The notes: generated by a model from the sequence alone, not told the origin. Counted from the whole stretch's first letter, positions 1 to 54,639 are shown. The stretch: 62,681 bases of DNA, filler included, from Reclinomonas americana ATCC 50394 (GCA_048213135.1; 5 parts of 4 records of this genome joined end to end with filler, not necessarily neighbours in it); one strand, 5' to 3'. A program made the numbers and translations.

Positions 1-2290
1 TGATGATGATGATGATGGCGACAAAGAAGACGATGACTACCGTCCACGCCGGAAGCGGCCTCGACGCGTCGAGGCTGCAAAGAAGGCGGCTGATGTGCAG
101 CTGATGCCACCTCCCAGGCCGCGTGCGGCCAAGCGAGCGCGAGGTGCGGCTGCTGTGGCGGCGGCGGCGGCGGCGGGAGGCACTGTGCGGCGATCTCCGA
201 AGACGGGCTTGCCGATTGGTGAGTCGGAGGTGCTGCGAGGCATGCATCGTCTGCCGCGGGAGTCGACGGGTATCCTGTACGCGTTTGTGCGCAAGCTGCG
301 TGCGGAGCAGCTGGAGAAGCAGCAGTGGGCCGAGGACGTGCCGGTGCCGTCTACGGAGGACAAGCGGAAGCTGGCCACCGATGTGGGAATGACTCTGGCG
401 CAAGTGTCGAACTGGTATGCGCCAGGATTTGCAGTGATATGCGCGCGCGTGTGTGTTTGAGGCACAGGACTGACTGACTGGCGCGAGCGCAGGTTTATCA
501 ATCTTCGCTACCGCGTGCGTCGCAATCGAAACGTGCTGGTGAAACTGATTTATGACGGGAGCAAGCCGCCGGATGCCAAGGAGGGCGAGATGTTGCCGCC
601 GCCACCGCCAGTGGACACATTTCCGGTGAGTGGACCGGGCGCGGCGGTGCCGGTGCGCCCCGAGCACGCGGTGCGAGAGTTCGATCCGGCCATTCTGGGC
701 TCGGTGGAGAACGGCGACAACCCGAAGACGGTGCTGGACCGGTGGTTCGACTGGCACTTTGACCACCCGTACGCCAGTGCCGACGAGAAGGCGGATTTGG
801 TGCGGCGCACAGGTTGGCCGCTCTACCGTGTCAGCGACTACCTCAATCGCAAGCGCAAGCGGCACTGGCGACGCGAGTTCAAGTTTATCGAAGGCGGCGG
901 CGTGCCGGACGACGTCATGTCACCGAGCATGCAACTGCGGCTCCGTCGCGTGCAACCGTCGCCCGCCGACGGCGGCTGGGACTCTGACGAAGAAGACGAC
1001 GACGGCGACTTTGACGACACCAACTCCATGTTCTCGAACCCAGACGACGCTCTGTATTTGCCGCCCGAGGCGATCGCTCGAGTGGAAGCAGTGGCAGCCG
1101 CTGCGGCTGTTGCCGCCGCCGCGGCCATCGGTGGGTCGCTGGCAAGGGAGCCTGGTAACGTTGGCGTGAGGGCGCATAACGGTGGTGGTGGTGGTGCGAA
1201 CGACGACGAAGAAGACGATGACGCCATGCTGCTACCCCCGCCCGTGCCATCTCCAGCACCCCCACGACCGCAAGTACAGGCCGCTCGTGCACCAGTACGT
1301 GCGCCAGCGCCAGCGCCAGCACCGCCGAGAGCAGCAGCTCCAGCTCCGGCACCTGCTCCGGCACGACCAAGAGCGCCTGCACCTGCACCCGCCCCTGTGC
1401 CACCGCCTGTGGTGACACACCAGCCCTTGCCAGCTCCGCGCCAGCCCGTGTCGGCTCAATTGCTTCCGCCTCCGCCAATGCTTCCACCCGCAGCGCCCGT
1501 GTCACAGGGCTTGCCAGTGGCTGTTGCGGCAGCAGCGTCGGGCGATCCCCAAGGTGCAGCAGTTCGTGCGCCCCTGATGCCGCCGAGGCCGTCGCCAGCA
1601 CCGCCGCCGCCGCCACCACCACCGCAACCTCGTCCGCCGATGCTAGGCGCGCCAGTACCACCACCAAGGCCAGCAGTTGCCATGGCCCCGCTTCCGGAGC
1701 ACTTGCGCGGTCGACCACTGGCTCCCGATCTCGCCACTCAAATGTACGGCAACTCGTCGCCAGCCGATGAGTACAGCTTCCTGCCGCCTCGCCCCTCCCA
1801 GCCGCAGCCTCCGCCGCCACCACCACCACCGCCTGCACCTGCTCTCTTCTCAGCCGGCTTGCAGCCGTCAGCTCAGGTTCTGGCGTTCCAACGCGATCGC
1901 TATGCACCTCCGTCGTTCGCTCCGCAGCATGCTGTCAATAACTCGTTGGGAGCGACGATGATGTTGTCCTCGGCGCATCAGCAGACGCGCCTGCTGCCGA
2001 TGGATCCCAACACCATGGCACGTTTTCCGGGCTCGATGTCGCAATTTGGACTGCTGCAGCAGGCACCACCCGCGCGTTTGCAGCAAGCACCGCCACCACC
2101 GCACTTGCAGCACATGGTGACGAACGCACACAACGAGGCGCAGTTCCTGCCGTCCCCCGCGGCTCCGACGCCACCAGAACATCTGCACAGATTCCTGCCT
2201 CCACCGGCACGAACCCCGGGCACACCGGCCACTCCAGGCGGCGACGACGCGCGGTTCTTGCCACCAGCGTACACGCCAACTGGGCAATGA
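1..2290 (+). CDS. TALE-class homeobox transcription factor with two homeodomains and a long Pro-rich C-terminus (5' end outside window; exons <1-414, 493-2290)
   Basis: Splicing GTATGC(415)..CAG(492) gives ...PSTEDKRKLATDVGMTLAQVSNWFINLRYRVRR, a TALE helix 3 (WFIN). Second homeodomain: VLDRWFDWHFDHPYASADEKADLVRRTGWPLYRVSDYLNRKRKR. Branch-like CTGAC lies near 471-480. Confidence 0.88.
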
Positions 2291-2405: not shown

Positions 2406-6548
<4,143 letters not shown>

Positions 6549-8288: not shown

Positions 8289-9733
8289 ATGTCGACGAGC
8301 AGCTCCTCCTCCTCATCCCCATCACAGTCGCCGCCTCGTGCCGTCAGTGTCGCACACAGTGGCATTCCTCCACAGCCACCACGTCGCACGCGTGGCAACA
8401 GCGGTCAAGGCCCACTCCTCACACTCTCCCTCGCCAATGCAGCCGCCGCCACCACCACCACAACCACCACCACCACCACCGCATCTAACAGCATCGCAGT
8501 GCCACTAGGTGCGGCGAGCAGTGGAGGCGGCAGTGCCAATGCCTCTCCACAGCGCACCTTTGACAGTGCAGTCGGCCATCCGCATCAGTCGCAGCTCTCG
8601 GCGGGCAGTGGCGAGTGGGGTGGGAGCAGTGGGTCAGCGGCGGTGTCTGCAGCGGCCGCGGTGGCGACTGCTGCAGCCACTGGAGGCTCTCCGTCGGGAC
8701 AGTCGTTGTCACCGCTCGCGGCGGCGGCGGTGGCCGCGGGTGCGCTGGGCCCGGTGCCGGTGCGACGGTTTACGGTGGTGCCAGGGTGAGTGAGTGGGCA
8801 CGAATGGACTTCCAAAGTCGATGAGTGAGTGAGTGTGATTGAGCAAGAGTGTGTCACTTGGCAGGGGTGATCGTGAGGCGCGCAAGTACCGGAGTCCACG
8901 CAAGTTGACGTGTCGTCTGAGCGAGTTTACGGCGTTGCGCGAGTTTCACGTGTCGAGTCGGTGCTTGGCGGTCACATTGAGCATGAAGGTTGGCATCTCC
9001 CCTTCTTCGCTCTCAATCTTTTACCATCCTGTTTGCCCATTGTGCGGTGCAGGGTCCTCGCAAGACGCGGTGTAGCATCCGTGCGAATGTGGTTCTGGTG
9101 CCCGATCGCGTCAAGCCCTCTATGCAAGGTCTCCCTCTCTCGTCTCGGTTCCTTTGCCGCTGCCGCCGCGTCTGACTTGGTGCGATCGTAGTTCCCCTGG
9201 ACATGGTGTTTGTGATGCAGTACATGCACAGATTCAAGCGCTCGGACGACTCCCTCCACATCAGCATCGAGAAGCGACGATCCAAGACGCGCACGTGGAA
9301 GACCATTGCGCATGCGAGTTTGTCGCTGAACCAGCTGGTGCAACGCGGCCTGAACGACTCTCGCATTTTTCTCGACTCGCCCAAGAAGGGGCAGCCGCCG
9401 GTCGGCAAGCTGTCGATCAGCGTATCGTCAATGCCCACCGACTTTGTCATGCCTGCCAGCGACGGAACCGCGGCCGCCACCTCGTCGCTATTCACGGGCA
9501 CCAGTCTGCAGGGCATAGCGGGGGTCGATGGCGGGGCCGGCAGCGGTGCTGTGGCCGCACAGGCTGTGGAGGAGACGCATCCGGAAGAGGGCGGCGGCGG
9601 CGAGTCGACGTCGGATGAGTTGCGCAGCGCGACATGTTTTTCCACATCTGCCCACATGAGATAACAGTGTTTGTGTTGTGCGCACAGGTCGTTGTTCAGT
9701 GGCGAGGAGTCGAGTGACGAGGGACCGTGGTGA
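8289..9733 (+). CDS. PACS-like (phosphofurin acidic cluster sorting) furin-binding-domain protein, short form (exons ~8289-8785, 8865-8988, 9053-9128, 9192-9618, 9688-9733)
   Basis: PRKLTCRLSEFTALREF..CLAVTLSMKGPRKTRCSIRANVVL..PLDMVFVMQYMHRFKRSDDSLHISIEKRR..WKTIAHASLSLNQLVQR..VGKLSISVSSMPTD parallels the PACS1/2 N-terminal domain (PRL..L.L..L..L.E; AVK.QG.KR.LRSN; L.F.LQYPHFLKR..N.LQI.LQRR; KTLA.G.IN.A.V.Q; I.SLSSQPID). Confidence 0.7.
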
Positions 9734-9955: not shown

Positions 9956-12900
9956 ATGTCGTCGCTCGACAGCAAGCGGCAGGTAACTCACTCACACACT
10001 CTCACATTCGTCTCCGAGTATGTGTTCAGTTTGCCATCCATTTTCATCCTCTTATCATCATCTCACGTTGTTTGTTTGCTTGCTCGTGTGTGCTGTTTTC
10101 TTTGTGTAGGCTTATGAGAGCCTTGTGACGGAGAAAGGCGAGTCTCATCCGACCACGCTCAAGGCCATGCATGACTATGCCATGGCGCTGCTGGACACTG
10201 GTAAGTGTCAGTTGCGAGAGGATATGTGTGCGTGTGTGTGTCTCTCTCTCTTCTCTGTGTGTCTCTTTCCCCTACGCACACGCGCACTTGAAAGAGTCTA
10301 TGTGTGGGTGTGTATGTGTGTACACGCGCGTCTTGCACTCTTTCGCATGTGTGTCAGTTGGCCTCCTGACTCGGCAACTGGCAGCGTCGTCGTCGGCCTC
10401 GCGGCAAGGCATCACCTTGTTGACACAATGCGCGGATCTGNNNNNNNNNNNNNNNNNNNNCTGCTCTTTTGACATGCACATGCGCGGCAGGCGAGCATCT
10501 GGAAGGTGTTCCGCTTCTGCAGGAGGTCATTGAGTTGGAGAGGGAACGTATCGGACCGACACACATTGGTGCGCGCGCGCGCGTTTTTAGTCAACCCCAT
10601 TTCCGTTCCATGCACCTGACCGTCATCCTCAGATACGCTGATTTCGGAAAATGTGCTCGGGCGTGCGTACATTGCGTATGATCCGCGACACGCAGTTGAA
10701 ATACTGCGCTCGTGTTTCTCGTCGATTTCGGCACTGGGCAACAACAAGTCGTCGGCACTGGTGGTCATGGGCGACCTCGGATGGGCGCTCTACCGGTCGG
10801 GCGACGCCATCGAAGCGGTGGAGCTGCTGCAGTCGTGAGTCCACGCCGCCGCCGCCACCACCGCCACCGTCGTGTTCATTGCGTTGCATTGCAGGTGCCT
10901 GGAACAGGCCACTGCCTTGCTCGGGGCACGTAACTGGAGAAAGGTAATCGTGCAACACCACTACGGCGTCGCGTTGCTGGAGGCCGGTCGCCCGACAGAG
11001 GCTGTTAGCGTGTTGGAGTCTGTGGTGGCACTGCGCAAGGAGATTCGTCTGCGACCAGATTTTGAGCGAAAGCTAAACTCGGTGGCCGAACTCAAGCGCG
11101 CTCAACGAGCTTTGCTTGTGAACGCGCCGTCTTGTTGCGTTTCGGCCACACACTTGTCAGTGTGTAAACGACCTCCCGTGCCTCACTCGCCTTTGTTCGC
11201 GACATGCAGTGTCCGAAATCCTCACCAAACTGCACGCTGCGGAGTTGGCGCCTCCCGAAGCCGTCTTCTGGCTGCTTACCCTCAGCAACGTGTTCCACGG
11301 TACATTTGCCCCCCTTCATCTTTGCATAATCGTCTGCGTGCTCACGTGCCGCCTCTGTAGATGTGCCAACCGCTCGGCAAGAGTTTGACAACGAGGCGAG
11401 TCTGTCGCTTCTCGTTCGTTTCCTGGCTCCATCGTCGCCATTTGGAGCCGATGTGGCGGTCAAGTCGGCCGCTGCTGCTGTGGTGTGGACTTTTGTGCAT
11501 AGCGGTAAGCCGTCGTCGTTGTCGTCATCGCGCTGCGCATGTCACGAAACCTCATTGTTTGATGTTCAGTGAGTCCAGAGTCCTTTGATCGGAAGCACCG
11601 ACTGGCGGCGCAAGGTGCTCTCAAGCGTCTTCGACCTCTGTTGCGCATTCCAGAGGCGCAAGCACACGCCGCCTCTGCACTCGCCTCTCTGTGCGACAGT
11701 TGCGCAGTTTGTACGGGTGCCCACAGCCTGTGTGCGGGCCTTGCTGATCCATTCTCCACAGGAATGCTCATGAACACCCAAATTTTCTGCGAGATGGGTG
11801 GTGTTTTCGATCTGATTGACGCACTGTCAGATCGGGCAACCAATGACATTCGTGAGTGCCTCCCGAGGCTTTCCTTCCACTCTCTCTCTCTCTCTCTATT
11901 TCGCTGATTCATGTGCGGCAGCAGCAGCGGTGGTGGATGACGAAAGTGTGGATCCGATCGAGGCGCTCTTCCGGCTGGCGTTCACCGTTCTGACGGGCTC
12001 CTTGAGCAGCCGGTTGGCGGTGTGCGATTTTGTGGAGCACGAGCGCATGATGGAAACGATGAATGTGCTACTGTGCACCCGGGCACTGAGCAGTGGCGCC
12101 TACGCGCATGGCATCTCCGTGCTCAATGTGCTACAGACCTACGGTCCACTGCACGTGAACAAGTGGTCCGCGCAAGTGGGAGCAACTCTGAAGGCTCTTT
12201 TGGTGGCGTCGCCATTACCGGAGGTGCAAAAGCTGGCGACAGCGATCCGCGACGTTGAACTCAGTTGCGCTTGTGCATGCATACGGGAATGGAGCCTGTT
12301 GAGTCCATTCTCCTTGCTCACGTCTGGTTGCACACGTTGCAGATCGTCGCGCCACATTCTGGCGCGAGCATGCTTCACGGCATGGCGTGACATTTGATAG
12401 CCCCGAAGGGTTGGTCGCCACGCTGCCGGTGAACGGACCGCGGTTGCTGGTCAGCGAGCAAGTGCTGGAGCTGGGCAGGTAAATTGCAAATTGCGCGCGT
12501 GCTGTGCATGACGCATGGTCTGACACGCGTGTCGCAGTGGCCAAGTGCTTCAGTGGACACTTCGTATCGGTCGCGGCAGCAATACAGCGCTCCTCTTTGG
12601 CATCCTGCCGGTGGAGCGATGTGAGGACGACAAGTTTCGTCATGCCACCCGCGGTGTTTCCCTTATGTGTTCCTCACGGACTCGTGCGCATTCACAACAC
12701 AGTTCGATGGATTCACGCGAGGCCATTGCATGCTACAACCAGGGCACTGGCACCAAGTAAGTCGCACGCCGTTCGTTTATTCTGCCCCTTTGATGCAACC
12801 TCCTGAGAAACTGTCTTGTCGCACAGTGTGCAACACTCTGTGCAAGTGCGTGAGAACGACACACTGAATGTGTGTGCCGACACCTCGCAAAGCGCAGTCA

Positions 12901-13025
12901 CCTTCACCGTCAACGGAAGCGTTGCGCGCACCGTACCCATTCCCATTGCGTCGGGCGACTTTAGGCTGGCGGTCACGCTCTGGCGCACGTCCCAGGTTAT
13001 TCTTGTGAATCCAGGCAGTGAGTAA
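9956..13025 (+). CDS. Multi-exon protein with N-terminal TPR repeats, central ARM-like repeats and a C-terminal SPRY/B30.2-like domain
   Basis: TPR: GESHPTTLKAMHDYAMALLDTG, VMGDLGWALYRSGDAIEAVELLQ, HHYGVALLEAGRPTEAVSVLE. ARM-like: GALKRLRPLL, GGVFDLIDAL. SPRY-like: WTLRI..LLFGI..DTLNVCADTSQSAVTFTVNG..FRLAVTL. In-frame join through an intron from 11134 to ~11209. Confidence 0.65.
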
Positions 13026-13457: not shown

Positions 13458-16400
13458 TCAGTTGCCTTCGTCCTCGCGAGCATCGTCGTCACGCGACTGC
13501 TCACGCTTGCGCCTGAGCGCTTCCCACTTGTCGCGCATGGCGTTGATCATGCTGCGGAGCGTGTAGTTCGGGATCAACAGTTGATGCTCCAACTGCACTC
13601 GCAGAAGAGACGTGAGTTTCACACAGACACGCACCGACGGAGAGAGGTGCACACACCTTGGCATTGGTGATGGGCGATGTATCGTGCTCCTTCAGCCACA
13701 GCTCAATGGACACGCGCTCGTACGTTCTGATTGATGCACACCACCACCATTGTAAGCGTTCCATACACCAACACGCTCAAAGAAGGGAGAGCGCTCACCG
13801 CCCGTCGGCCGCCACCACGGGGTCATGCATGAGCTCGAAGGACACCGGATCCAGATAATCTTCCATGATGTTGAAGTCTACGGCGCTCATAAGTAAACAG
13901 TAGGAGGCATCACAAACAGCGACGACGTTACCGGGATCGTTCGAAATCTCGTCGTTTTCGCGCTGAATGCGGTTCATCTCGTCGCGCAACTCGTCCATGT
14001 TGAGGAAACGGTGACCGCTGTTGTCGACCTCGGGAACGGCTGATGCGACGAAAGCAGCGTAAGAACACCAGCACGGTATCAAATGAAGCGAGTAGGCGAG
14101 CGAACCGAGGCGCGACGGGTTCGGCACAACCTCGTACACGATGGAGAGCAGCAGCTCCCACAGCGTGTCCGGCAAGTTCATGTACGAGTGTGCCTTGTGC
14201 ACGAATCGCGAGAGCGCACGGATGTTGGTGACGAAGCGATCCTTGAGCGCCTTTTCTACCACAGTAATGGAGGGAAACGCGGACGAAAGTGAACAACAGG
14301 CAGGAAAAGGAATAGCAGGTGGCGCGTACGACAGGCCACATATCTGCGAATCTCGGTGGACCAGCCAAACTCGGAGGCCGCATACCGCACCAGATCCTTG
14401 ATGCTTGAATCCGCATTCAGGCCACTCGGGTGCGTCGAGACTGGCGCCGCACTGGAGCTTCCGTTTCCTTCGCGACCATTCTTGGACGACGATCCCGGAG
14501 CCGCAGCCGACGACGACGACGACGACTTGCCCCTGCAGCCCAACCACGAACATGAGTGCGCACAATGTAGCTGGCGACCAAGGGAAATAGACTCACCGAC
14601 GCGCAGCATTGGCAGCGGCGGCAGCGGCTGCAGCTGCAGGATCTTCGCCAGCGCCGGCGGCCGCAGGTCCACTGCCATACGGTGCGACACCCGGCGGCGC
14701 GACAACTTGCGGGAACGCCAAGTGTGCTGCATATCACTGACCGTGTGAGGGGGCCGCAGCACAGCCTCGAACACGCAGAGCGAGCAAAAAAACAAACCCA
14801 CAGCTCCCGGCGAGTATGCGCTCTCCGGGAACACGTAGCGCATCTCGTTCTCCGGCTGCGCGTATGCAATTCATAATGGTAAGAACCATGCCGCAACAGC
14901 ATGAAACGTCACACCAACATCACAGTACCGGTGCCTTGGTGAAGCCACGTCGCTCAAAGTCCGAACGCGACCGAAGTGACGACCAGTACGAGGCGCCCGC
15001 GTCTCCATCGACAAGCAGCCACAGATTGTCCTGCGATGCGCGCACCAGTGAACACATGCAGCATGAAATGGCAGCGCGTGTGGCAGACAGAGCGACGCAC
15101 CTGGCTGACACCAACAACCAGTGCTGTGTGGTTACACATGGGCGGTGTGAGGGAGTGGAACAGAGAGGAGAACAAGCGAAACCTCGATTGGTTTGTTACC
15201 TCGCTTGCCACGGTCCGTCTGCTGCAGCGTTTCGCCATGCAAGTAGCCGAACCGCTGGCACGTCTCTCGGCTGATATCTGCGGCAAGACACAGGTTGGGA
15301 ACCGCTCATGCGTGGACGACTCTCGAGATAGGCAGCATGCGAACCGAATTCGATCTCATTGCCACTCCTCGTGTGGAACCGCAGCGTCATTTCGGCCTCC
15401 GCCACGGCCCTAAAGCCGCGCGCACGGAATTCGCCCGCATTGCGACACGAGCCGAAATACGAGGCACCCGCATCGCCGTCAATGTGAAGCCACAGGTGCG
15501 ACGAGTGGACGCCAATGACAGTGGCCTGCGGTTGGTGCACAGATTGTAAGAGGTGATAAGCGAGCGCAATTACCATCCGAACGCAAGTGGACAGACCTCA
15601 CGGCCGTCAGGTGTGCGAATTCGCTGGCCATGCGTGAATCCGTAGGGGCGGCACGAATCGTCACTCTTGTCAAAAAGGTGCGTGTTCCCACTGATGGTAC
15701 GGTACTCAATCATGTTCGGATTGGCTCTGGCCACTGCAGCCTGAGCGGCGGCCACCGAGGGCGACGGCGGCGGTGCAAGACTACCGGCCACGGCTGCGTT
15801 GCTGCCCGAGCCACTTGCCGCGCCGCCCTTGTTGACGCCGGGCTGATTGCGGTCGGCTGGCGACGGCGCCGGTGCCACACCAGCTCCCTCCTGAAAACAC
15901 ACGCAGACAAGTCAGTCAGTCAGTCAGACTGGTGATGCACCGCACATTGTGAGAGGTAGTGTGCAGACGAAACGTTCAAAATCGTGAACCCTCGTCGCTC
16001 CAGATCCGCCTTGGTCTTGATGGTGCTCCAGTACGACGCGCCACAATCACCGTCGACGTGGAACCACAGATTGCCGTCGTGGACACTACACGGTATCCGC
16101 GACAAAAGTTAGACGCCGTGGTGCAAGTGAGCAGAGGGGAGGGAGTACGCACCCAATGGTGGTGGCACGTTTGCCGTCGGCAGTCATCACACGCTGTCCG
16201 TGCGACAAACCCCACGGACGGATAATGTCGGGTGTGATGTCAAACTCGTACGTCTTGCCACTCTTTGTGCTGTACGGCACTCTGGTGCTCTCACCGTCCT
16301 GGCACACACACACACACATCAGCGAGACAACACCGGTGGAGAAGCAGAGAGAAAGATTGCAGCGCGCACCACGACTTTGACAAAGCCCTTGCGGTCAAAG

Positions 16401-17655
16401 TCCTCCTTCGTTTTGCATGAGCTCCAGAACGATGCACCGCTGTCACCTACAATTCACGCACACCACCGCTGGTTGAGAACTGGTCGTCTTCCCCCTTCGC
16501 GCGCGCGCAACAAACAAAGTGTACCTTCGACGTGGAACCACAAGTTGCCCTGCGAAGCGAAAACCAACAACTGAGTGCGCGAAGCTGCTGAGGAAAACAG
16601 GTCGAGTATAACGCACCTCGTACACGCCCACTACAGTGGCAATCTTACCGTCACTCGTTTGCTGCAATGAATCGGTGAGATCATCGCGGCGGGAGCACGC
16701 AGACAGGGGGAGAAGAGCAGCAGCACACCCGGATCTTTTCGCCGTACAGGTAGCCAAACGGACGGCACTCCTCGGGGCTAATGTTGAACGTGTACTGCTT
16801 GCCGCTCTTGGTCACGTAGATCAGATTCTCCTCGTGGCCTTGTTGCTGTGTGCGTATGAACGCGCGATGGAGAGGGGAGGAAGAAGAGAATGTGGATTGA
16901 TGCTGTTAGAAAAATACAAAACAAACCAGACAACTCCTTTCTGACGAGAGAGGCACCTGGCACAAGTACGGACACACACGCATACACACGAGTATGCGCA
17001 CATAAAGAAGGGCGAGGGTGCGCGTGCACGTGCAGGCATGGCCACAATCACGCACGCTTCTCGCAGACACTCAGGGGTGATTGACACCGCACACACAGCA
17101 TGGTGTGCCTACTCACACACGTGCGACACACACACACACACACTCACTCACCGCCAGTCGGAAACCCTTCTTCGCAAAGTCGTCAGCACTCTGACATGAG
17201 CCCCAGAAGCTGGCACCAAAGTCGCCCTCCACGTGCAGCCACAGGTTGCCCGAGGACACACCGACTACACCACACACACACACGCGCGCGTGCGCGCATT
17301 CGAGGAGTCAGTGAGAAGGCACACAAACGAGAAAGAGATAGAGAGAGCGTGCGGTCTCTTCTTCTTATTTTAGTATCCTTCTCTCTTCCGTTGTCTCACC
17401 GACAGTCGCGCGACGGTTATCGCACGTCAACACAGTCTGCCCGTGTCGAAAGCCAAACGGCGAACACGCAGCATCTGGTGACAAGCACAATTGTCAGGCA
17501 CATACACACACAACGACTGGACCTGCAAATGAGCTCTCGCACTCACGTACGCACCTGAGGTGTCGAACTCGTAGGTTTTGCCTGCGTGTGTGTGGACAGG
17601 TGGAGGCGGGTGAGAAAAGGAGAGCGGAGGAATGGGGTCTTTGAGGAGTGCACAT

Positions 17656-17707
<52 letters not shown>

Positions 17708-19244
17708 GTGAGATCACGCACTCACCGCTCTTTGTGGGGTATAACATGGCGCGGCCACACACGCCGCCGTGTCAAGTGAAAGCACTGCACGCGCGACGAG
17801 AGGCGAGCGAAACGAAGGTGTGCGTGTGACGAACACGTGCGCGGACAAGGGGACCTCGCAAAACGGATTTGCACACTGCGGCGACTTCACTAAACTTCGT
17901 CGACAAGCTCAGCCGCTTCCTCGGCAATTGGCGGTGGTGGTCTTCTGGACCCGTACGCATTAGGTCGCTGCGGCATTGGTTGTTGCTGACCTGGTCTCAG
18001 TCCCGGCTGTTGCTGCGCCTGCGATCGGTGCTGTTGTTTCTGTCGCCTTGGTGATGGCACTGGTGGCATGTACGGCTTCATGGCCAAGAAGAGTTCGCGG
18101 AGCACACGGTCCATGGCCCGGTAGACACGATCAGAGTATCGAATGATACGTCTGCGCCGTCGCTGAGCCTCCTCGGGTGTCTCTGCAATACGTGCAAGAA
18201 ATGAGAGATGAATGTGCAAGCAGGAAAGCGGGCGAATCAGCTGGCTCACCTTCACCAGTCGAAGGCGCATCGTCGGTCGGCAGCGCCGAGTCCAAAGTAG
18301 CTGGCGGAACCTGTGCCTCGGTCGGAGCTGGAGCTGTCGATGCTCCAGCTGGAGCTGACGATGTTTCAGCAGGGGCTGGTGGCGTTCCGGCTGCAGCAGG
18401 TGGAGTCTCGGCTGGTGGCGTTGCAGCCGGGGCCTCGCTACCAGCTGGCTTGTCACCACCAGCGCCTGGAGCCTCGCCACCAGCTGGTTTGTCACCACCA
18501 GCAGCCGGGGCTTCACCACCAGCAGGTTTGTCACCACCAGCGGCTGGAGCCTCGCCACCAGCCGGCTTATCGCCGCCAGCGGCTGGAGCCTCACCACCGG
18601 CAGGTTTGTCACCACCAGCGGCCGGAGCCTCACCACCGGCAGGTTTGTCACCACCAGCAGCCGGGGCTTCACCACCAGCTGGCTTGTCACCACCAGCAGC
18701 CGGGGCTTCACCACCAGCTGGCTTGTCACCACCAGCAGCCGGAGCCTCACCACCGGCAGGTTTGTCACCACCAGCGGCCGGAACCTCACCACCAGCTGGC
18801 TTGTCACCACCAGCAGCCGGGGCTTCACCACCGGCAGGTTTGTCGCCACCAGCAGCTGGAGCGGCAGCGGCACCATCACCAGCTGGCTTGTCACCACCAG
18901 CAGCCGGGGCTTCACCACCGGCAGGTTTGTCGCCACCAGCAGCTGGGGCCGCAGCAGCACCGTCACCACCGGCAGCGGGAGCGGCAGCAGCGGGAGCGGC
19001 AGCGGGAGCGGCAGCGGCACCGTCACCACCGGCAGCTGGGGCGGCAGCTGGAGCGGCCGCAGCACCATCACCGCCTGCAGCTGGGGCAGCAGCAGCAGGA
19101 GCAGCAGCAGCACCATCACCACCGGCAGCAGGAGCGGGGGCAGCAGCGGCACCATCACCACCGGCAGCGGGAGCAGGGGCGGCAGCAGCAGGAGCGGCCG
19201 CAGCAGCACCGTCACCGCCTGCAGCAGGAGCGGGGGCAGCAGCA
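13458..19244 (-). CDS. U-box E3 ubiquitin ligase with five tandem ~80-aa repeats and an N-terminal AGGDKPAGGEAPA low-complexity region (5' end lost at linker)
   Basis: U-box: YLDPVSFELMHDPVVAADG|TYERVSIELWLKEHDTSPITNAK|LEHQLLIPNYTLRSMI. Five copies of an LWxHxDGDxGASxW-type unit lie at ~14930-17750. Linkage of the 18.2-19.2 kb repeat exon to this gene is inferred from strand and splice sites. Confidence 0.85.
18430..19244 (-). repeat. Coding 39-bp minisatellite (AGGDKPAGGEAPA)n grading into (AGGDGAAAAPA)n
   Basis: Recurring ccagcwggyttgtcaccaccagc units keep the minus-strand frame open and vary mainly at synonymous positions. Confidence 0.85.
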
Positions 19245-19344
19245 NNNNNNNNNNNNNNNNNNNNNNNNNNNNNNNNNNNNNNNNNNNNTTAATTAATTAA
19301 NNNNNNNNNNNNNNNNNNNNNNNNNNNNNNNNNNNNNNNNNNNN
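19245..19344. other. Artificial contig linker N44-TTAATTAATTAA-N44 (also at 41042-41141, 45946-46045, 60023-60122)
   Basis: Identical 100-nt structure four times; the 12-mer contains stops in all six frames; adjacent genes are truncated at these points. Confidence 0.97.
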
Positions 19345-19497: not shown

Positions 19498-20964
19498 GCG
19501 CCACGAATCAATTCCCGGCCTCGAAACCCTCCGCCATCTCGTGTTGAAGAGCGCCCTGCTGACGCACACCGACGTGCTGGGCATCACGCCGGCCTACGCC
19601 GTCGCGTACTTGCTCTTCCGTCTGTTCAAGGACGCCGAGGTGTGGTGGCGTGTGCCGCAGGCAAAGAGAGTGGATATGCCGACTAACCTGCGCTTCATCG
19701 CCCTCACAGTACCCGTTCTACAAGGCCAGGTACGATCACGCGCTGCTGCAGGAGCTCGCCGACGAGCTGGACTCGTTTGAGAGGGACTTTTTCCAGTACG
19801 AGGCACCCGCTGCAGTGCAGTTTCGTACGCTCTCGTCCCTTTTTTTGGTGTCACATCACGTCGCTCACTTCTCCCACCTCGCGCAGCAATGAGAACAACC
19901 GCAAGGACAACTACGGCCGGTACTCCAGCATGTTGCGCAAAGTGGCCGATGAAGTCAAGCGAGCGCGAAACTCGTCACAGCGCGCCTCGCACCAAGTATT
20001 CGAGCAGGCCGCCGAGGTCATCAAGGAGGCGGCTGGTCGCCTCACCGACAGTCGCATCGACAGGTGTGCATTTCCTCCAACTCCCTTTCCCTTTCCCTAT
20101 CCTTGTCGTCGTCGCTCACACTGTCGCGTGCAGTCCTTCGCACGGCTTTGCGCCCGCCAGCGTCACCACGGCCATCTGCGCCTTCCTGATCATGCGCAGC
20201 TCCGAGTGGCCGATCATGAAGGTGCTGTGGAACTTGTTTGCGGTCGGTGGTGACACGGACACTGTCGGAGCTATTGCCGGCAGTCTATGTGCCGCCTCCA
20301 TGGCGTCGCGCGGACTTATGGGTGACGTCTTGTATCTGGTCGACTCGTATCTGATCGATTGCCCAGTTGCTCAGTCAAGACAAAGTATGGCGTCGCGCAA
20401 GGTGTTCTTCACTCGCCGTTTCTGTCTGTGCCTCACTCTGGCGTTCGTGTAGCGCTTGCCGAGCATTTTTACAACTTCGCCCATCAACGTGACTATGTCA
20501 TGGATGTGTTGGATGTGGAGCGGCGGGTGTCGCTGGCGCTCTGCTTGCAACCTGTGAACAAGAGAACAGCCGTGTACACACAACGCGAGCGTCGAGATGC
20601 TGCGGACAACCGACGTCGGCTGGAGGCTGGTGCGCTTGGCTGCTGTTTTCTGCCAAGGATTGCACCTGCTCAACTCTTGTGTGGCATGGCATGCAGAGTT
20701 CGGCTACGCTTTCCGGGACGCCATGCAACTGTATCACGACGTGCACCAGGTGGCCGCAGATCTGGCGAACGCGTACACGCAGGTCATGTTGCGACTGGCG
20801 GATCGAGCGCGCGTCGAACCTGCCGCCGTGTTTACGCTGCTGACAAGTACGTTTCCTTGCGAGTGCCCTCACATGTGCGCTAGTCGCAGCTCATCGTGGT
20901 GTGTGGCGCAGTGCAATCGCGCCAGGAAATGTTCAAGCGTGAGTGGAATCGCATGTTCAAGTGA
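19498..20964 (+). CDS. ADP-ribosylglycohydrolase (ARH/DraG family), 3' portion with a helical C-terminal extension
   Basis: SALLTHTD (family TH motif) and NLFAVGGDTDTVGAIAGSLCAA (GGDTDT metal-binding motif). Ends ...MFKREWNRMFK* after intron GTACGT..CAG. Confidence 0.88.
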
Positions 20965-51677: not shown

Positions 51678-54639
51678 TTACGAGTGTCGCTCGAGTATGG
51701 CGGCGACTGCATCGAGTGCCGACTTGCTGCCGTCGGACTTGCCACCGACTACCCGTCGATTCCCGTATTCCACTAATGCGCGGAAGCACTCGCCTGTGGC
51801 ACACGTGTGAGGCAGGTGGGCGGAAAACAGGCAGGGCGGACGCGGATTTTGCCCGCACCAACTGAAACTGTTCGACTGGCACACAGATCGCTGAACTTTG
51901 CCAGCTTCTCCGACACTGCCGCATCGCCAAAAGCGTGGTACTTGAGCTGTATGGCGTGTGTCAAGCGACCGATACACAGTAGCAACCATGGGGAAACCCG
52001 AGGCACACGAAACTCGACGACCCCACAGCGATGCGGCAAGAAGCTGGATAATGGCCTTGGTCTCCTTGTCGCCGCCAAACATGCCGCAACCCCAGTGACC
52101 TGGCACTGGTGTGTCAGCACACACGTGTTCCCACCAATTTCTCTTTCGAGTCATCAACAGACCTGTGGCGATCGGCGTCATCCGGTCTTCCTCATCCAGC
52201 ACAGCATCGGGAGCAAAGGCACATGCCGCCTGCCGCACGCAAGTGAGCGCTGGAAACACGGAGACACATTCATGCAGCGCAAGGCACCTTGTTCATCTCA
52301 CGAATCATCCCGGCTTCGCTAAACTGAACACGCTCGCCAGAATAGTAAATGGACGCGTCGAACGCGGCAATCCACGACTTCAGTCGGTTTGCTGAATCTC
52401 TGCGGAGAGTGTCAGAAAGAGCACGATGACTTGTTCCACGACAACAGAGACCTTGGTAACGCCTGCACATAATTCCCACCGTACTGCAACGACCCGCCGT
52501 AGCCACGATGCTGCGAGTAACGCTCCGTTCCGTACTGTATGTAACATACGTGCGCATAATCAGAGCGGGGTATGCGAGTTAGTGAGTGACGCAGAGTCGA
52601 CGCTACCATCAACAGCGTCTCGTTGTCCATCAGTGGTGCGGTGATGAGCGACGCCACACACAGTTCCGGGTTGAGCATGAACCGAATCTCTTCTTGCACA
52701 TTACCCTGCGGCGGAAAATACTCGTGGTGAGAGAGAGAGACTCTCATCGCACTCTACATCCCGCCGGTTAGGGAATGAAAGATCGCCCAAGCAGCACATG
52801 CAAGAAGCTGAATGCTCTCTTGTGCATCCCGTGACACCACGATACCATTTCATCAATCCACTCTCGCCCTCACGCGTCTCGTGGCTTCTCAATCTCTTCA
52901 TCATCGATCTCTCCAACGCCCACACCCAAGGCAAGCGAATGCAAGCCGCTGAATGCTCTCTACGTCCCGATGCCCCACAATCTCAGCATCATCAGTACTC
53001 TCTCGACACACCCGAGGCGACAAGCAGAGATCACCCAACCACCCGTGCAAGACACTGAATGCTGCCTCCCTCTCCCTTTTCCCCTCCCCTTCCCCTCTTT
53101 CCCCCTCCCCTTCCCTTCTATCCCCAACGCAACAGCCTCAATCGCTCCACCCCCGACATAGCGATTCGCAAAATCGGCCTGTGCACAGACCACCACCACA
53201 TTGAGCTTCGCAGCAGCAGCGGTCTTCCCTTCCCCCCATGCCACGCAACATGTAACGCGTCATCATTCTCATCCTCGATACCCCTGTGCGTGCTCTCGAC
53301 GGCGAGCAGCGGCAGCACAGGCTTGTCGACGGTCGACCATTCAACTGGCTGCTGCAAAACATGTCTGTGGAAGGTAATACACGCCGTGCCGACTGCACAA
53401 CCAACAACGATTCAGTGGTCCGTCTCCCACACCATCTCCCACGCCACGTGCCTTGCTGTGACACACGCCGCCAGTAGTTGATCATGAGGCGAAACTTGGC
53501 CAGCTGACTTCGCTCCAAATCAACTGCTTGCACCAATGAGTAGCAGGCAGAGGGAGGGAGAGGCGGGAAGGAGAGATGCCAGTCGCAACATTGGAAAAAT
53601 GTACAAAAATTGCTCGGTGGCATGCGTTTCCGTATGGGAGTGAGACAGAGAAACTGCTGCGCGAGTATACATGCCGCCTGCTCTTGCGACAGCGTGACGC
53701 CGGCATCTGTGGCACCACAAACGAGGGTCGGAACGAGATGGTAAAAGAAAGCATCGCAGTAGGCGAACCGTGTTGCTGCTGCAACAGGGGCAGTGGATGC
53801 GGAAGCAGAGTGGCCGCGCGAAGCGCCATTCGCTGCACGGTGGGCAGGATGACCTCGAAGAACTCGCGACTCTCCTGTTCGCATGGATGAGAAGGCACTG
53901 CAAGACCGGTGATGATGATCGATCTACACAAGCCACACCTCAGCACTAAAGTTGGTCTCGATGCACTCTAGTATGTGCTGCCACACGTAGTCGAGTCCAA
54001 TCGCCGAGAAGAATGTCTGCAGTGCGTGTGTGTGTGAGATGATCTGCTGGCCGCCACACGAGTGACAACAGAAAAATAGAATCATGTACAAGTCCGCGGA
54101 ACTTGCGCGCGCGACAACGACACGAGCATGCACACAAGCATCTACACACGCACACACATGTACGTGAGCACACCTGCAGTCCCTCAAAGTCCTCAATCTG
54201 CTTGGTGAGCAGCGGTTGCACCTTGGCCCAGCCTGAGCATGCACAAAGAGAGTGAGTGAGATGAGTGTGCACGTGCAGGAGACACACTCAATGAGCGACA
54301 GTGCGCGTGTGTGTGTATGCAAGGAGACAGTGAGACAGAGATCATGAGATGGTGTCCGCATATAATCCCGCAAGCGCAACGACCCGGCACATGGTGCGCC
54401 AACAGCACCAGCGCAGCACCTCGTTCCTGTGCACGCGCACTGGCCGCACTTTCATCGCGCAAATCCACATGCCAACTGGACACAACTGCCCAGCTCGGCA
54501 CACTCCGCATGGGCGCGTCGTCGCCACCGTCATCGTCCATGTCGCCTTCGTCTGCATCGATGCCTGTGCCATCGTCGTCGGCGGAGGGCATGTCGAAGAG
54601 AATGGGAGGAGCAGGGTGGTGCGCGTCGCCCTCGCTCAT
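51678..54639 (-). CDS. PARG: Poly(ADP-ribose) glycohydrolase (canonical macrodomain PARG)
   Basis: FFEVILP, LSQEQAACILAQQF, ADFANRYVGGG, GNVQEEIRFMLNPELCVA, GTERYSQHRGYG, IREMNK|A, IATG|HWGCGMFGGD..KAIIQLLAAS. Confidence 0.95.

What the first reader, a model, noticed from the sequence alone, without database searches (positions are those of the whole stretch)
13458..17790. U-box ligase built on five copies of an unnamed ~80-aa repeat domain
Seen: splicing yields five units. R1 is LYPTKSGKTYEFDTSDAACSPFGFRHGQTVLTCDNRRATVVGVSSGNLWLHVEGDFGASFWGSCQSADDFAKKGF. R2 begins IYVTKSGKQYTFNISPEECRPFGYLYGEKI. R3 is PYSTKSGKTYEFDITPDIIRPWGLSHGQRVMTADGKRATTI..GNLWFHVDGDCGASYWSTIKTKADLERRGF. R4 begins EYRTISGNTHLFDKSDDSCRPYGFTHGQRIRTPDG. 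R5 ends DNLWLLVDGDAGASYWSSLRSRSDFERRGF. All are followed by a C-terminal U-box. Intron positions differ between units, so the repeats are old. Known: U-boxes are E3 ligase domains. Inference: the G-x-R-V..G..ATVhGV..LW pattern suggests an SH3-like beta-barrel acting as a multivalent substrate receptor. I do not recognise it as a named family.
Basis: partly seen in the sequence, partly recalled or inferred. Interest (0 to 1): 0.8.

Follow-up and report, generated by a model that had tools for sequence, protein, structure and literature searches.

The report
Unnamed barrel repeats on U-box ligase
A heavily spliced gene of a microbial eukaryote most likely encodes a ubiquitin ligase carrying five copies of a small barrel-shaped domain that lacks a family name, that other protists attach to many ubiquitin-pathway enzymes, and whose closest solved relative lies inside a trypanosome mitochondrial ribosome protein.

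Summary
Confirmed. A 23-exon minus-strand model (17747-13458) gives one open 789-aa frame: five ~77-aa repeats (43-57% identical), a low-complexity linker, an unassigned ~110-aa segment and a C-terminal U-box. No Pfam, NCBIfam or PHROG family reaches its cut-off on the repeat. It belongs to a real family: 54 of 57 retrieved proteins carry it, from Amoebozoa, Discoba and at least one bacterial contig. Of the 19 with a Pfam partner domain, 13 are ubiquitin-system proteins (MINDY, RING, HECT, DUSP, BTB); the rest are kinase, PARP-SAM, WD40, CLU, AAA and pilin-like. An AlphaFold model (pLDDT 95) is a Tudor/SH3-like barrel with extensions. Its only full-length match is a domain inside trypanosomatid mitoribosomal protein mS48 (Z 7.0-8.3), which a sequence profile also finds weakly. 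The MBT methyl-lysine cage is absent. Best reading: a multivalent target-recognition array on a U-box E3; the ligand is unknown. One transcript joining repeats and U-box is inferred from splice signals, not shown, and no retrieved homologue has both. The scan already noted this domain on other pieces of the same genome, including another five-repeat U-box gene (unchecked notes).

The parts
13458..17747 (-). Whole gene model, 23 exons, 789 aa. Exons: 17747-17726, 17581-17555, 17474-17400, 17264-17152, 16845-16729, 16661-16617, 16549-16525, 16446-16370, 16298-16153, 16085-15974, 15890-15597, 15525-15345, 15277-15200, 15123-15101, 15030-14929, 14855-14798, 14726-14597, 14532-14330, 14255-14106, 14039-13932, 13877-13799, 13726-13657, 13592-13458
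   Evidence: open frame, 22 of 22 introns GT-AG; GC3 highest in the predicted frame for 20 of 23 exons, tied in exon 3, lower in exons 14 and 17
17155..17741 (-). Repeat 1 (aa 3-78), exons 1-4
   Evidence: 100 bits with the non-window profile
16373..16818 (-). Repeat 2 (aa 89-166), exons 5-8
   Evidence: 103 bits
15977..16274 (-). Repeat 3 (aa 176-252), exons 9-10
   Evidence: 100 bits
15705..15890 (-). Ala/Pro/Gly/Ser-rich linker (aa 254-315) between the R1-R3 and R4-R5 blocks
   Evidence: sequence of exon 11; no hit among stored proteins
15403..15704 (-). Repeat 4 (aa 316-392), exons 11-12
   Evidence: 99 bits
14932..15378 (-). Repeat 5 (aa 401-478), exons 12-15
   Evidence: 85 bits
14856..14928 (-). 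Intron 15 (73 nt, phase 0), the junction that decides between one gene and two
   Evidence: modal length and intron-like composition, but the weakest donor score of 22; same position as the introns after R2 and R3
14420..14855 (-). Low-complexity Ala/Pro/Ser/Gly linker (about aa 480-580), exons 16-18
   Evidence: exon-like trimer scores 0.31-0.41, flanking introns negative
13932..14419 (-). Unassigned segment (about aa 580-695), exons 18-20; probably helical (inference from sequence)
   Evidence: no Pfam or PDB hit; SAM idea not supported
13524..13869 (-). U-box domain (about aa 699-768), exons 21-23
   Evidence: Pfam PF04564; best PDB sequence hits of exons 21 and 22 are U-box chains, weak (7c96_B, 7xed_C, 1t1h_A, 1wgm_A; E 0.12-1.3)

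Best explanation
One cytosolic protein: five copies of an unnamed Tudor/SH3-like barrel, arranged 3+2 on flexible linkers, then a U-box. The barrels bind a feature of target proteins (most likely a short motif or small surface patch), several copies giving avidity. The U-box recruits an E2~ubiquitin and transfers ubiquitin to what the barrels hold. Shown: the repeats, their family, their predicted fold, the U-box sequence, the open spliced frame. Inferred: a single transcript, ligase activity, the binding role and the kind of ligand.
For: Open 789-aa frame with canonical introns. No transmembrane stretch (best 19-residue hydropathy 1.0). In other organisms the domain sits where recognition modules usually sit: ahead of BTB-BACK, where SPOP has its MATH domain (P0055, L004-L006, L008; the SPOP comparison is my knowledge); ahead of RING (P0005, P0041); ahead of the MINDY catalytic domain (7 proteins above cut-off, plus L007); inside a HECT/SPRY/UBA/ZZ protein (P0032); and as arrays ahead of a kinase (P0002, about 10 copies) or PARP+SAM (P0045, 4 copies). 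Of 19 proteins with a Pfam partner above cut-off, 13 are ubiquitin-system proteins; counted by distinct architecture, 6 of 12 (7 of 13 with this gene). The fold class (Tudor, CarD-like, KOW, chromo-barrel matches) consists mostly of binding modules (established knowledge). Repeats are near charge-neutral (8-11 K+R, 8-11 D+E), which fits protein binding better than RNA binding.
Against: No ligand was identified. None of the 57 retrieved proteins carries both the repeat and a Pfam U-box, so this architecture rests on the splice model. Intron 15 has the lowest leave-one-out donor score of 22 (-5.2). The MINDY proteins are homologues and inflate the 13 of 19 count. 34 of the 54 carriers have no Pfam partner at all, and a further one (P0042) has only a sub-threshold MINDY hit. 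The only full-length structural match is in a ribosomal protein, and the domain also occurs in bacterial proteins with no ubiquitin context (L003, P0024, P0053).
Confidence: 0.55

Rival explanations
1. The barrels bind ubiquitin or ubiquitin chains, so the protein is an E4-like chain elongator or chain reader rather than a substrate receptor.
For: The domain occurs on both writers (U-box, RING, HECT) and erasers (MINDY, DUSP) of ubiquitin. MINDY enzymes are K48-chain selective and named for a ubiquitin-interacting motif (PMC4942677, abstract start and passages). Tandem copies suit chain binding.
Against: It also sits on a kinase, a PARP, a CLU protein, mS48 and bacterial proteins, and occupies the substrate-receptor slot of BTB-BACK proteins.
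Confidence: 0.12
2. The barrels bind RNA or ribosomal/RNP surfaces, making this a ligase for ribosome or RNP quality control.
For: The full-length match is to mS48 (Z 7.0-8.3). KOW domains of Spt5 appear among weaker matches (Z 3.7-4.4). One carrier has a CLU domain (P0033).
Against: The repeats are not basic. The passage read on mS48 describes contacts with other proteins (mS51, mS22, mS47, mS60, uS5m, mS59, mS49; PMC8998825). No RNA-binding partner domain in most carriers.
Confidence: 0.11
3. The barrel reads a small ligand or a modification other than methyl-lysine (for example ADP-ribose or a nucleotide) and couples it to ubiquitination, as WWE domains do for poly-ADP-ribose.
For: A shared presence on E3s, DUBs, a PARP and a kinase resembles the WWE pattern (recalled). 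A conserved polar cluster (His49 85%, Asp51 71%, Asp53 74%) lies next to Trp47 (86%) across 86 copies.
Against: Only one PARP among 54 carriers.
Confidence: 0.1
4. Two genes: a repeat-only protein ending just after exon 15 (read-through meets a stop three codons into intron 15) and a separate small U-box protein starting in exon 16.
For: Weak donor at intron 15. Repeat-only proteins are common among homologues. Genes lie close in this genome (about 142 nt from the upstream gene's stop to this ATG). No homologue with both parts.
Against: Intron 15 has modal length and intron-like composition and keeps the frame. It lies at the same codon and phase as the introns after R2 and R3, which must be spliced. 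Introns 7 and 13, inside repeats, score almost as low (-3.3, -4.7). The gap would be under 80 nt.
Confidence: 0.08
5. The repeats are divergent MBT/Tudor methyl-lysine readers.
For: Weak MBT hits in 3 of 29 copies (best E 0.0087) and 21.7 bits against a cut-off of 22 for 7-copy P0001. Royal-family folds appear at Z about 4.
Against: The MBT cage uses three aromatics spaced i, i+3, i+7 around the strand 3-4 loop (Phe526, Trp529, Tyr533 in MBTD1; PMC2747274 passage). Here that loop (positions 51-55) is D-G-D-x-G, with at most 8% aromatic residues at any position in 86 copies.
Confidence: 0.04

Closest known systems
Internal domain of trypanosomatid mitoribosomal protein mS48 (PDB 6hiv/6hiw/6hiy/7pub chain DA 618-731; 7aor_aa 670-778; 7ane_aa)
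   Same: Only full-length structural match: 73-74 of 76 residues aligned, rmsd 2.2-2.4, Z 7.0-8.3, 18-24% identity; Foldseek TM 0.70, E 0.01. The sequence profile independently ranks Leishmania mS48 first in the PDB (E 0.0017, summed over three partial stretches).
   Different: mS48 is a 1788-aa ribosomal scaffold (PMC8998825), its copy has long insertions, and it has no ligase domain. Z under 8 can be a common arrangement according to the tool, and Foldseek E did not reach 0.001, so homology is likely rather than proven.
U-box E3 ligases with repeat-type recognition domains (plant PUB/ARM proteins such as 1t1h, 7c96, 7xed; CHIP with TPR, recalled)
   Same: U-box plus a repeated interaction module.
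   Different: The module is a beta-barrel array of no named family, not ARM or TPR.
Mind bomb and KEEP ON GOING ligases with MIB/HERC2 and SH3_15 repeats (recalled)
   Same: E3 ligases using arrays of small SH3-like barrels for recognition; the closest functional analogy.
   Different: RING rather than U-box; no Pfam hit to those families in 29 copies at E<=0.1; they were not among the listed fold matches.
Tudor-like domains of CarD, UvrD/PcrA, RapA; myosin N-terminal SH3; MBT and chromo-barrel domains
   Same: Barrel core, model residues about 22-76, Z 4-5.8.
   Different: Most lack the N-terminal hairpin and helix (residues 1-21); identity 10-26%; the MBT cage residues are absent.
N-terminal domain of amoebozoan MINDY (DUF544) deubiquitinases, e.g. 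Heterostelium album EFA80835.1 and Pelomyxa schiedti
   Same: Same domain, 85-112 bits with the family profile.
   Different: Single copy on a deubiquitinase; unannotated there as well.

Membership tests
U-box E3 ligase (PF04564) | U-box profile score above the curated cut-off | tested here: met
   Exon 21 alone gives 23.3 bits against 21.4; exon 22 continues at profile positions 25-47
U-box E3 ligase (PF04564) | Last third of the domain (profile 48-73) present | tested here: inconclusive
   Exon 23 alone gave no Pfam hit at E<=1 and no U-box chain in the PDB; its Pro-Asn-x-x-Leu-Arg motif fits the consensus as I recall it
U-box E3 ligase (PF04564) | No zinc-chelating Cys/His set; central-helix Trp kept | tested here: met
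   No Cys in aa 697-768; Trp732 aligns with the Trp of U-box chain 7c96_B
U-box E3 ligase (PF04564) | E2-dependent ubiquitin transfer | not testable with these tools
   needs an in vitro assay
U-box E3 ligase (PF04564) | Repeats and U-box in one polypeptide | tested here: inconclusive
   Continuous frame and intron features; no transcript evidence in hand
MBT repeat (PF02820) | Profile score above cut-off | tested here: not met
   3 of 29 copies hit weakly, best E 0.0087; 21.7 against 22 bits for a 7-copy protein
MBT repeat (PF02820) | Semi-aromatic cage Phe/Trp/Tyr at the strand 3-4 loop | tested here: not met
   Positions 50, 53, 57 are V/I/L, D/E, S/T with 6%, 0%, 1% aromatic in 86 copies; cage definition from PMC2747274; the register relies on a recalled MBT motif, but the loop has no conserved aromatic in any register
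SH3/Tudor/KOW-like barrel (fold class) | Small antiparallel barrel matching solved members | tested here: met
   Model strands 28-31, 34-42, 45-50, 56-58; CarD Z 5.7, rmsd 1.7 over 51 residues. The model is of the copy in P0032, not of a window repeat
MIB/HERC2, SH3_15, canonical SH3 (Pfam) | Profile match | tested here: not met
   0 of 29 copies at E<=0.1; no repeat exon at E<=1
MIB/HERC2, SH3_15, canonical SH3 (Pfam) | Structural equivalence | tested here: inconclusive
   Not among the 50 rows listed, which does not exclude it
mS48 internal domain | Full-length structural match including the N-terminal hairpin and helix | tested here: met
   Model range 1-76, 74 aligned, rmsd 2.2, Z 7.6-8.3 for trypanosome chains
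mS48 internal domain | Significant sequence homology | tested here: inconclusive
   E 0.0017 for the whole Leishmania chain, no single stretch significant; divergent multi-repeat protein P0048 gave no PDB hit at E<=1
mS48 (orthologue) | Similarity over the ~1800-aa chain | tested here: not met
   789 aa with a U-box; only the domain matches

The most novel reading that the evidence does not exclude
The barrel is an ancient, unrecognised reader of one specific signal (a degron, a modification or a small ligand) shared by a whole protist signalling layer of writers, erasers and adaptors (U-box, RING, HECT, Cullin3-BTB, MINDY, USP, PARP, kinase). It spans Amoebozoa and Discoba, was not retrieved from animals, fungi or plants, was taken into the trypanosome mitoribosome, and is borrowed by bacteria on surface proteins. 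This gene would be its pentavalent E3.
Probability: 0.15. Interest if true: 0.75.

Novelty: new variant of a known kind. Interest (0 to 1): 0.45.

Why it matters
It defines a nameable domain family that annotation misses in amoebozoan MINDY deubiquitinases, several ligase types and many euglenozoan proteins, and it suggests an origin for part of mS48, a protein described as kinetoplastid-specific. A small, soluble domain with a confident model makes the ligand question directly testable. If all carriers read one signal, that would be a branch of ubiquitin signalling not seen in the usual model organisms. As it stands it is an unnamed adaptor of a known fold class on a known ligase type.

Tried and rejected
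Own genome: none is held, so paralogues elsewhere in the genome could not be counted; a six-frame scan found no further copy inside this window (best outside hit E 0.6). RNA runs: no RNA holder listed, so no reads were laid. Complex prediction of one domain copy with ubiquitin: no verdict (score 0.02, alignments not used); not counted either way. ESM Atlas: no usable feature hit for exon 12 or for P0012 8-95, and structure hits at TM 0.42 or lower. NCBIfam: three unrelated weak hits; PHROGs: none. Viral contigs: 91 pattern matches, none confirmed; BFVD: nothing at E<=0.001. Prokaryote genome collection: 118 matches with none confirmed, then 2 of 12 listed, both rejected as chance (L001 out of frame inside another ORF, L002 inside an unrelated ORF, 11-13 bits); these pattern scans are insensitive. 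Dropped as false hits: P0017, P0030, P0044 (no domain by the profile). SAM reading of aa 580-665: alignment score reached by 75% of shuffles, tested against one SAM sequence only; rejected for now. Single-sequence fold of two-repeat P0014: pLDDT 39, not usable, so repeat packing is unknown. Domain tree of 86 copies: window repeats scatter with weak support, uninformative beyond a diplonemid cluster. One search was run at a threshold too strict to inform. Paper searches showed no description of this domain in their listings; the library lacks most subscription papers, including the original trypanosome mitoribosome structure paper (recalled), whose text or supplement may describe the mS48 domains. 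No supplements were read.
Full report
Gene model. The region is a minus-strand, intron-dense eukaryotic gene. Twenty-three exons from ATG 17747 to stop 13458 give 2370 nt and 789 aa without an internal stop, and all 22 introns are GT-AG; 17 of 22 are 64-83 nt. GC at third positions is highest in the predicted frame for 20 of 23 exons; exon 3 ties, and exons 14 and 17 are lower, exon 17 being Ala/Gly-rich. The upstream gene stops about 142 nt before the ATG, and a convergent gene ends at 13025. The model is from DNA alone.

The repeats. Five units lie at aa 3-78, 89-166, 176-252, 316-392 and 401-478, with 43-57% pairwise identity, arranged 3+2 around a 62-aa flexible linker. A profile of 29 copies from other organisms scores them at 85-103 bits. 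Four-fold sites are near saturation (79 of 201 identical, 0.29 expected), so the duplications are old. Most internal introns differ, but R2 and R5 share one, and R1, R2, R3 and R5 each end in a phase-0 intron 3-4 codons past the closing Gly-Phe. This suggests duplication of intron-bounded modules (inference).

The U-box. Exon 21 passes the Pfam cut-off (23.3 against 21.4 bits) and exon 22 continues the profile (E 0.04); exon 23 alone does not hit. The best PDB sequence matches of exons 21 and 22 are U-box chains, though weak. There is no Cys in aa 697-768 and the helix Trp is kept. Between R5 and the U-box lie about 100 low-complexity residues and about 110 unassigned residues.

One gene or two. 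Intron 15 decides it. It has the weakest donor of 22, and read-through would stop three codons later. Against a split: it has modal length and intron composition, keeps the frame, and sits at the same codon and phase as the introns after R2 and R3; introns 7 and 13 inside repeats score nearly as low; exons 16-20 score as exons. I put two genes at about 8%. None of the retrieved homologues has both repeat and U-box.

No named family. No repeat exon gave a credible Pfam hit. Of 29 copies, 3 hit MBT weakly (best E 0.0087) and 1 each hit three other families. NCBIfam gave three unrelated weak hits and PHROGs none. The database's own precomputed Pfam column, which carries later version numbers, is blank for repeat-only proteins such as 7-copy P0001. 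A newer or other catalogue could still hold it.

The family. Four searches returned 57 proteins, of which 54 carry the domain (29 of them helped build the profile, and P0017, P0030 and P0044 were dropped). Named carriers are amoebozoans (Heterostelium, Pelomyxa, Ceratiomyxa), the jakobid Stygiella, several diplonemids and the kinetoplastid Apiculatamorpha. At least one carrier is bacterial in context: L003 has it in an intronless ORF among DoxX, an ISL3 transposase and arginyl-tRNA synthetase. Others have a prokaryotic pilin-type N-terminus (P0053) or a MoxR-like AAA domain (P0024). P0001 is labelled as a Campylobacterota MAG on a 2.2-kb contig, a label I could not verify. No animal, fungal or plant name appeared, but most hits are unnamed and the word-based searches are insensitive.

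Partners. Nineteen carriers have a Pfam partner above cut-off: MINDY 7, RING 2, HECT 1, DUSP 1, BTB 2, and one each of kinase, PARP+SAM, WD40, CLU, AAA and N-methyl. That is 13 of 19 in the ubiquitin system, or 6 of 12 distinct architectures. P0042 has a sub-threshold MINDY hit, and 34 have no partner. Five of the six metagenome loci add four BTB proteins and one MINDY. The domain usually precedes the catalytic or scaffold domain, singly or in arrays of up to about ten.

Fold. AlphaFold2 on the 29-copy alignment (first row: the copy in HECT protein P0032) gave pLDDT 95.3 and pTM 0.83: short N-terminal strands, a helix at 15-21, four barrel strands, a helix at 65-70. Among 48,161 representative chains the top match is T. 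brucei mS48 (6hiv_DA 618-731; Z 7.7, rmsd 2.2, 74 of 76 residues), then CarD (Z 5.7, 51 residues) and other Tudor-like barrels. A second look put five trypanosomatid mS48 chains first (Z 7.0-8.3), and Foldseek ranked mS48 first (TM 0.70, E 0.01). The sequence profile had already ranked Leishmania mS48 first in the PDB (E 0.0017 from three partial stretches). Each signal is modest and the tool warns that Z under 8 can be common, but two independent methods agree and only mS48 covers the whole domain. mS48 is described as a kinetoplastid-specific 1788-aa protein contacting seven other ribosomal proteins (PMC8998825, one passage); the passages in PMC7947838 and PMC8784144 say nothing on its domains.

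Conserved residues. Across 86 copies, Gly40 is invariant, and Gly6, Phe11, Gly22, Gly34, Ala36, Val38, Val41, Leu46, Trp47, His49 and Ala56 are 81-94% conserved; Asp51 and Asp53 are at 71-74%. The loop that carries the methyl-lysine cage in MBT repeats (PMC2747274, passages) has no conserved aromatic here, so a methyl-lysine reader is unlikely. I could not check surface exposure.

Mechanism. The most likely reading (0.55) is a multivalent recognition array feeding targets to a U-box. Its support is positional: the domain occupies the receptor slot in BTB-BACK, RING, kinase and PARP-SAM proteins, and the repeats are charge-neutral. Rivals are ubiquitin-chain binding (0.12), RNA or ribosome binding (0.11), a small-ligand or modification reader (0.10), two genes (0.08) and a methyl-lysine reader (0.04). 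No binding was demonstrated for any of them.

Earlier notes of this scan. After reaching this reading I found unchecked notes on other pieces of the same genome: another five-copy U-box gene (e1-7384683, 2758 letters), and BIR and kinase genes with the same kind of repeat (e1-7447631, e1-7447909). Sequence look-ups with this gene found no look-alike there, so the first is probably a diverged paralogue; I could not verify it. They are not independent evidence.

Verdict. Real gene, real unnamed family, known fold class, known ligase type. Eight paper searches listed no description of the domain; the library is incomplete and no supplements were read. New variant of a known kind; interest 0.45.

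Noticed in passing
P0019 / P0062 (Diplonema papillatum, NCBI): Named 'U-box domain-containing protein 37', yet Pfam finds no U-box in P0019, which holds three copies of this repeat. The name may have been transferred from a repeat-plus-U-box protein through the repeat.
   Followed up: partly
P0022, P0033, P0048: Very long proteins (1600-2300 aa; P0033 from the diplonemid Artemidia, with a CLU domain) carry six or more diverged copies; possible bridge to the mS48 type. P0048 gave no PDB sequence hit.
   Followed up: partly
P0016, P0053, L003:1112-1654: Bacterial-type carriers: one with a pilin-type N-terminal methylation motif, one with a hydrophobic N-terminus ending in a lipoprotein-like Cys (by eye); both list a 2423-nt contig and may be neighbours. 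Suggests an exported use of the domain in bacteria.
   Followed up: partly
P0003, P0015, P0028, P0039: Short fragments from unnamed contigs that resemble R2-R5 of this gene (up to 70% identity over 46 aa); P0003 appears to read into an intron at the same place after its last repeat. Possible orthologues.
   Followed up: partly
window 17784-17820 (-): A pyrimidine-rich stretch and CAG lie 37 nt upstream of the ATG, with an in-frame stop between them: possibly a 5' UTR intron or trans-splice acceptor.
   Followed up: no
window 17890-19245 (-): Upstream gene with a long Ala/Gly/Pro/Asp/Lys tandem peptide repeat of about 11 residues, running into an assembly gap; no Pfam hit.
   Followed up: no
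window 10839-13025 (+): Convergent downstream gene region with a weak TPR hit (E 9e-4) and a last exon that looks SPRY-like by eye, without a Pfam hit.
   Followed up: no
window 2-2287 (+), 2409-4232 (-), 9176-9661 (+): Two TALE-type homeobox (Homeobox_KN) hits about 400 nt apart, a SCAI gene and a PACS N-terminal C2 domain.
   Followed up: no
window 19781-20449 (+) and 51681-53967 (-): An ADP-ribosylglycohydrolase fragment and a PARG gene lie in the same window; probably coincidence, noted because of the ADP-ribose rival.
   Followed up: no
window 19246-19344: An 11-nt A/T-only string sits between two runs of N, most likely an assembly or library artefact.
   Followed up: no
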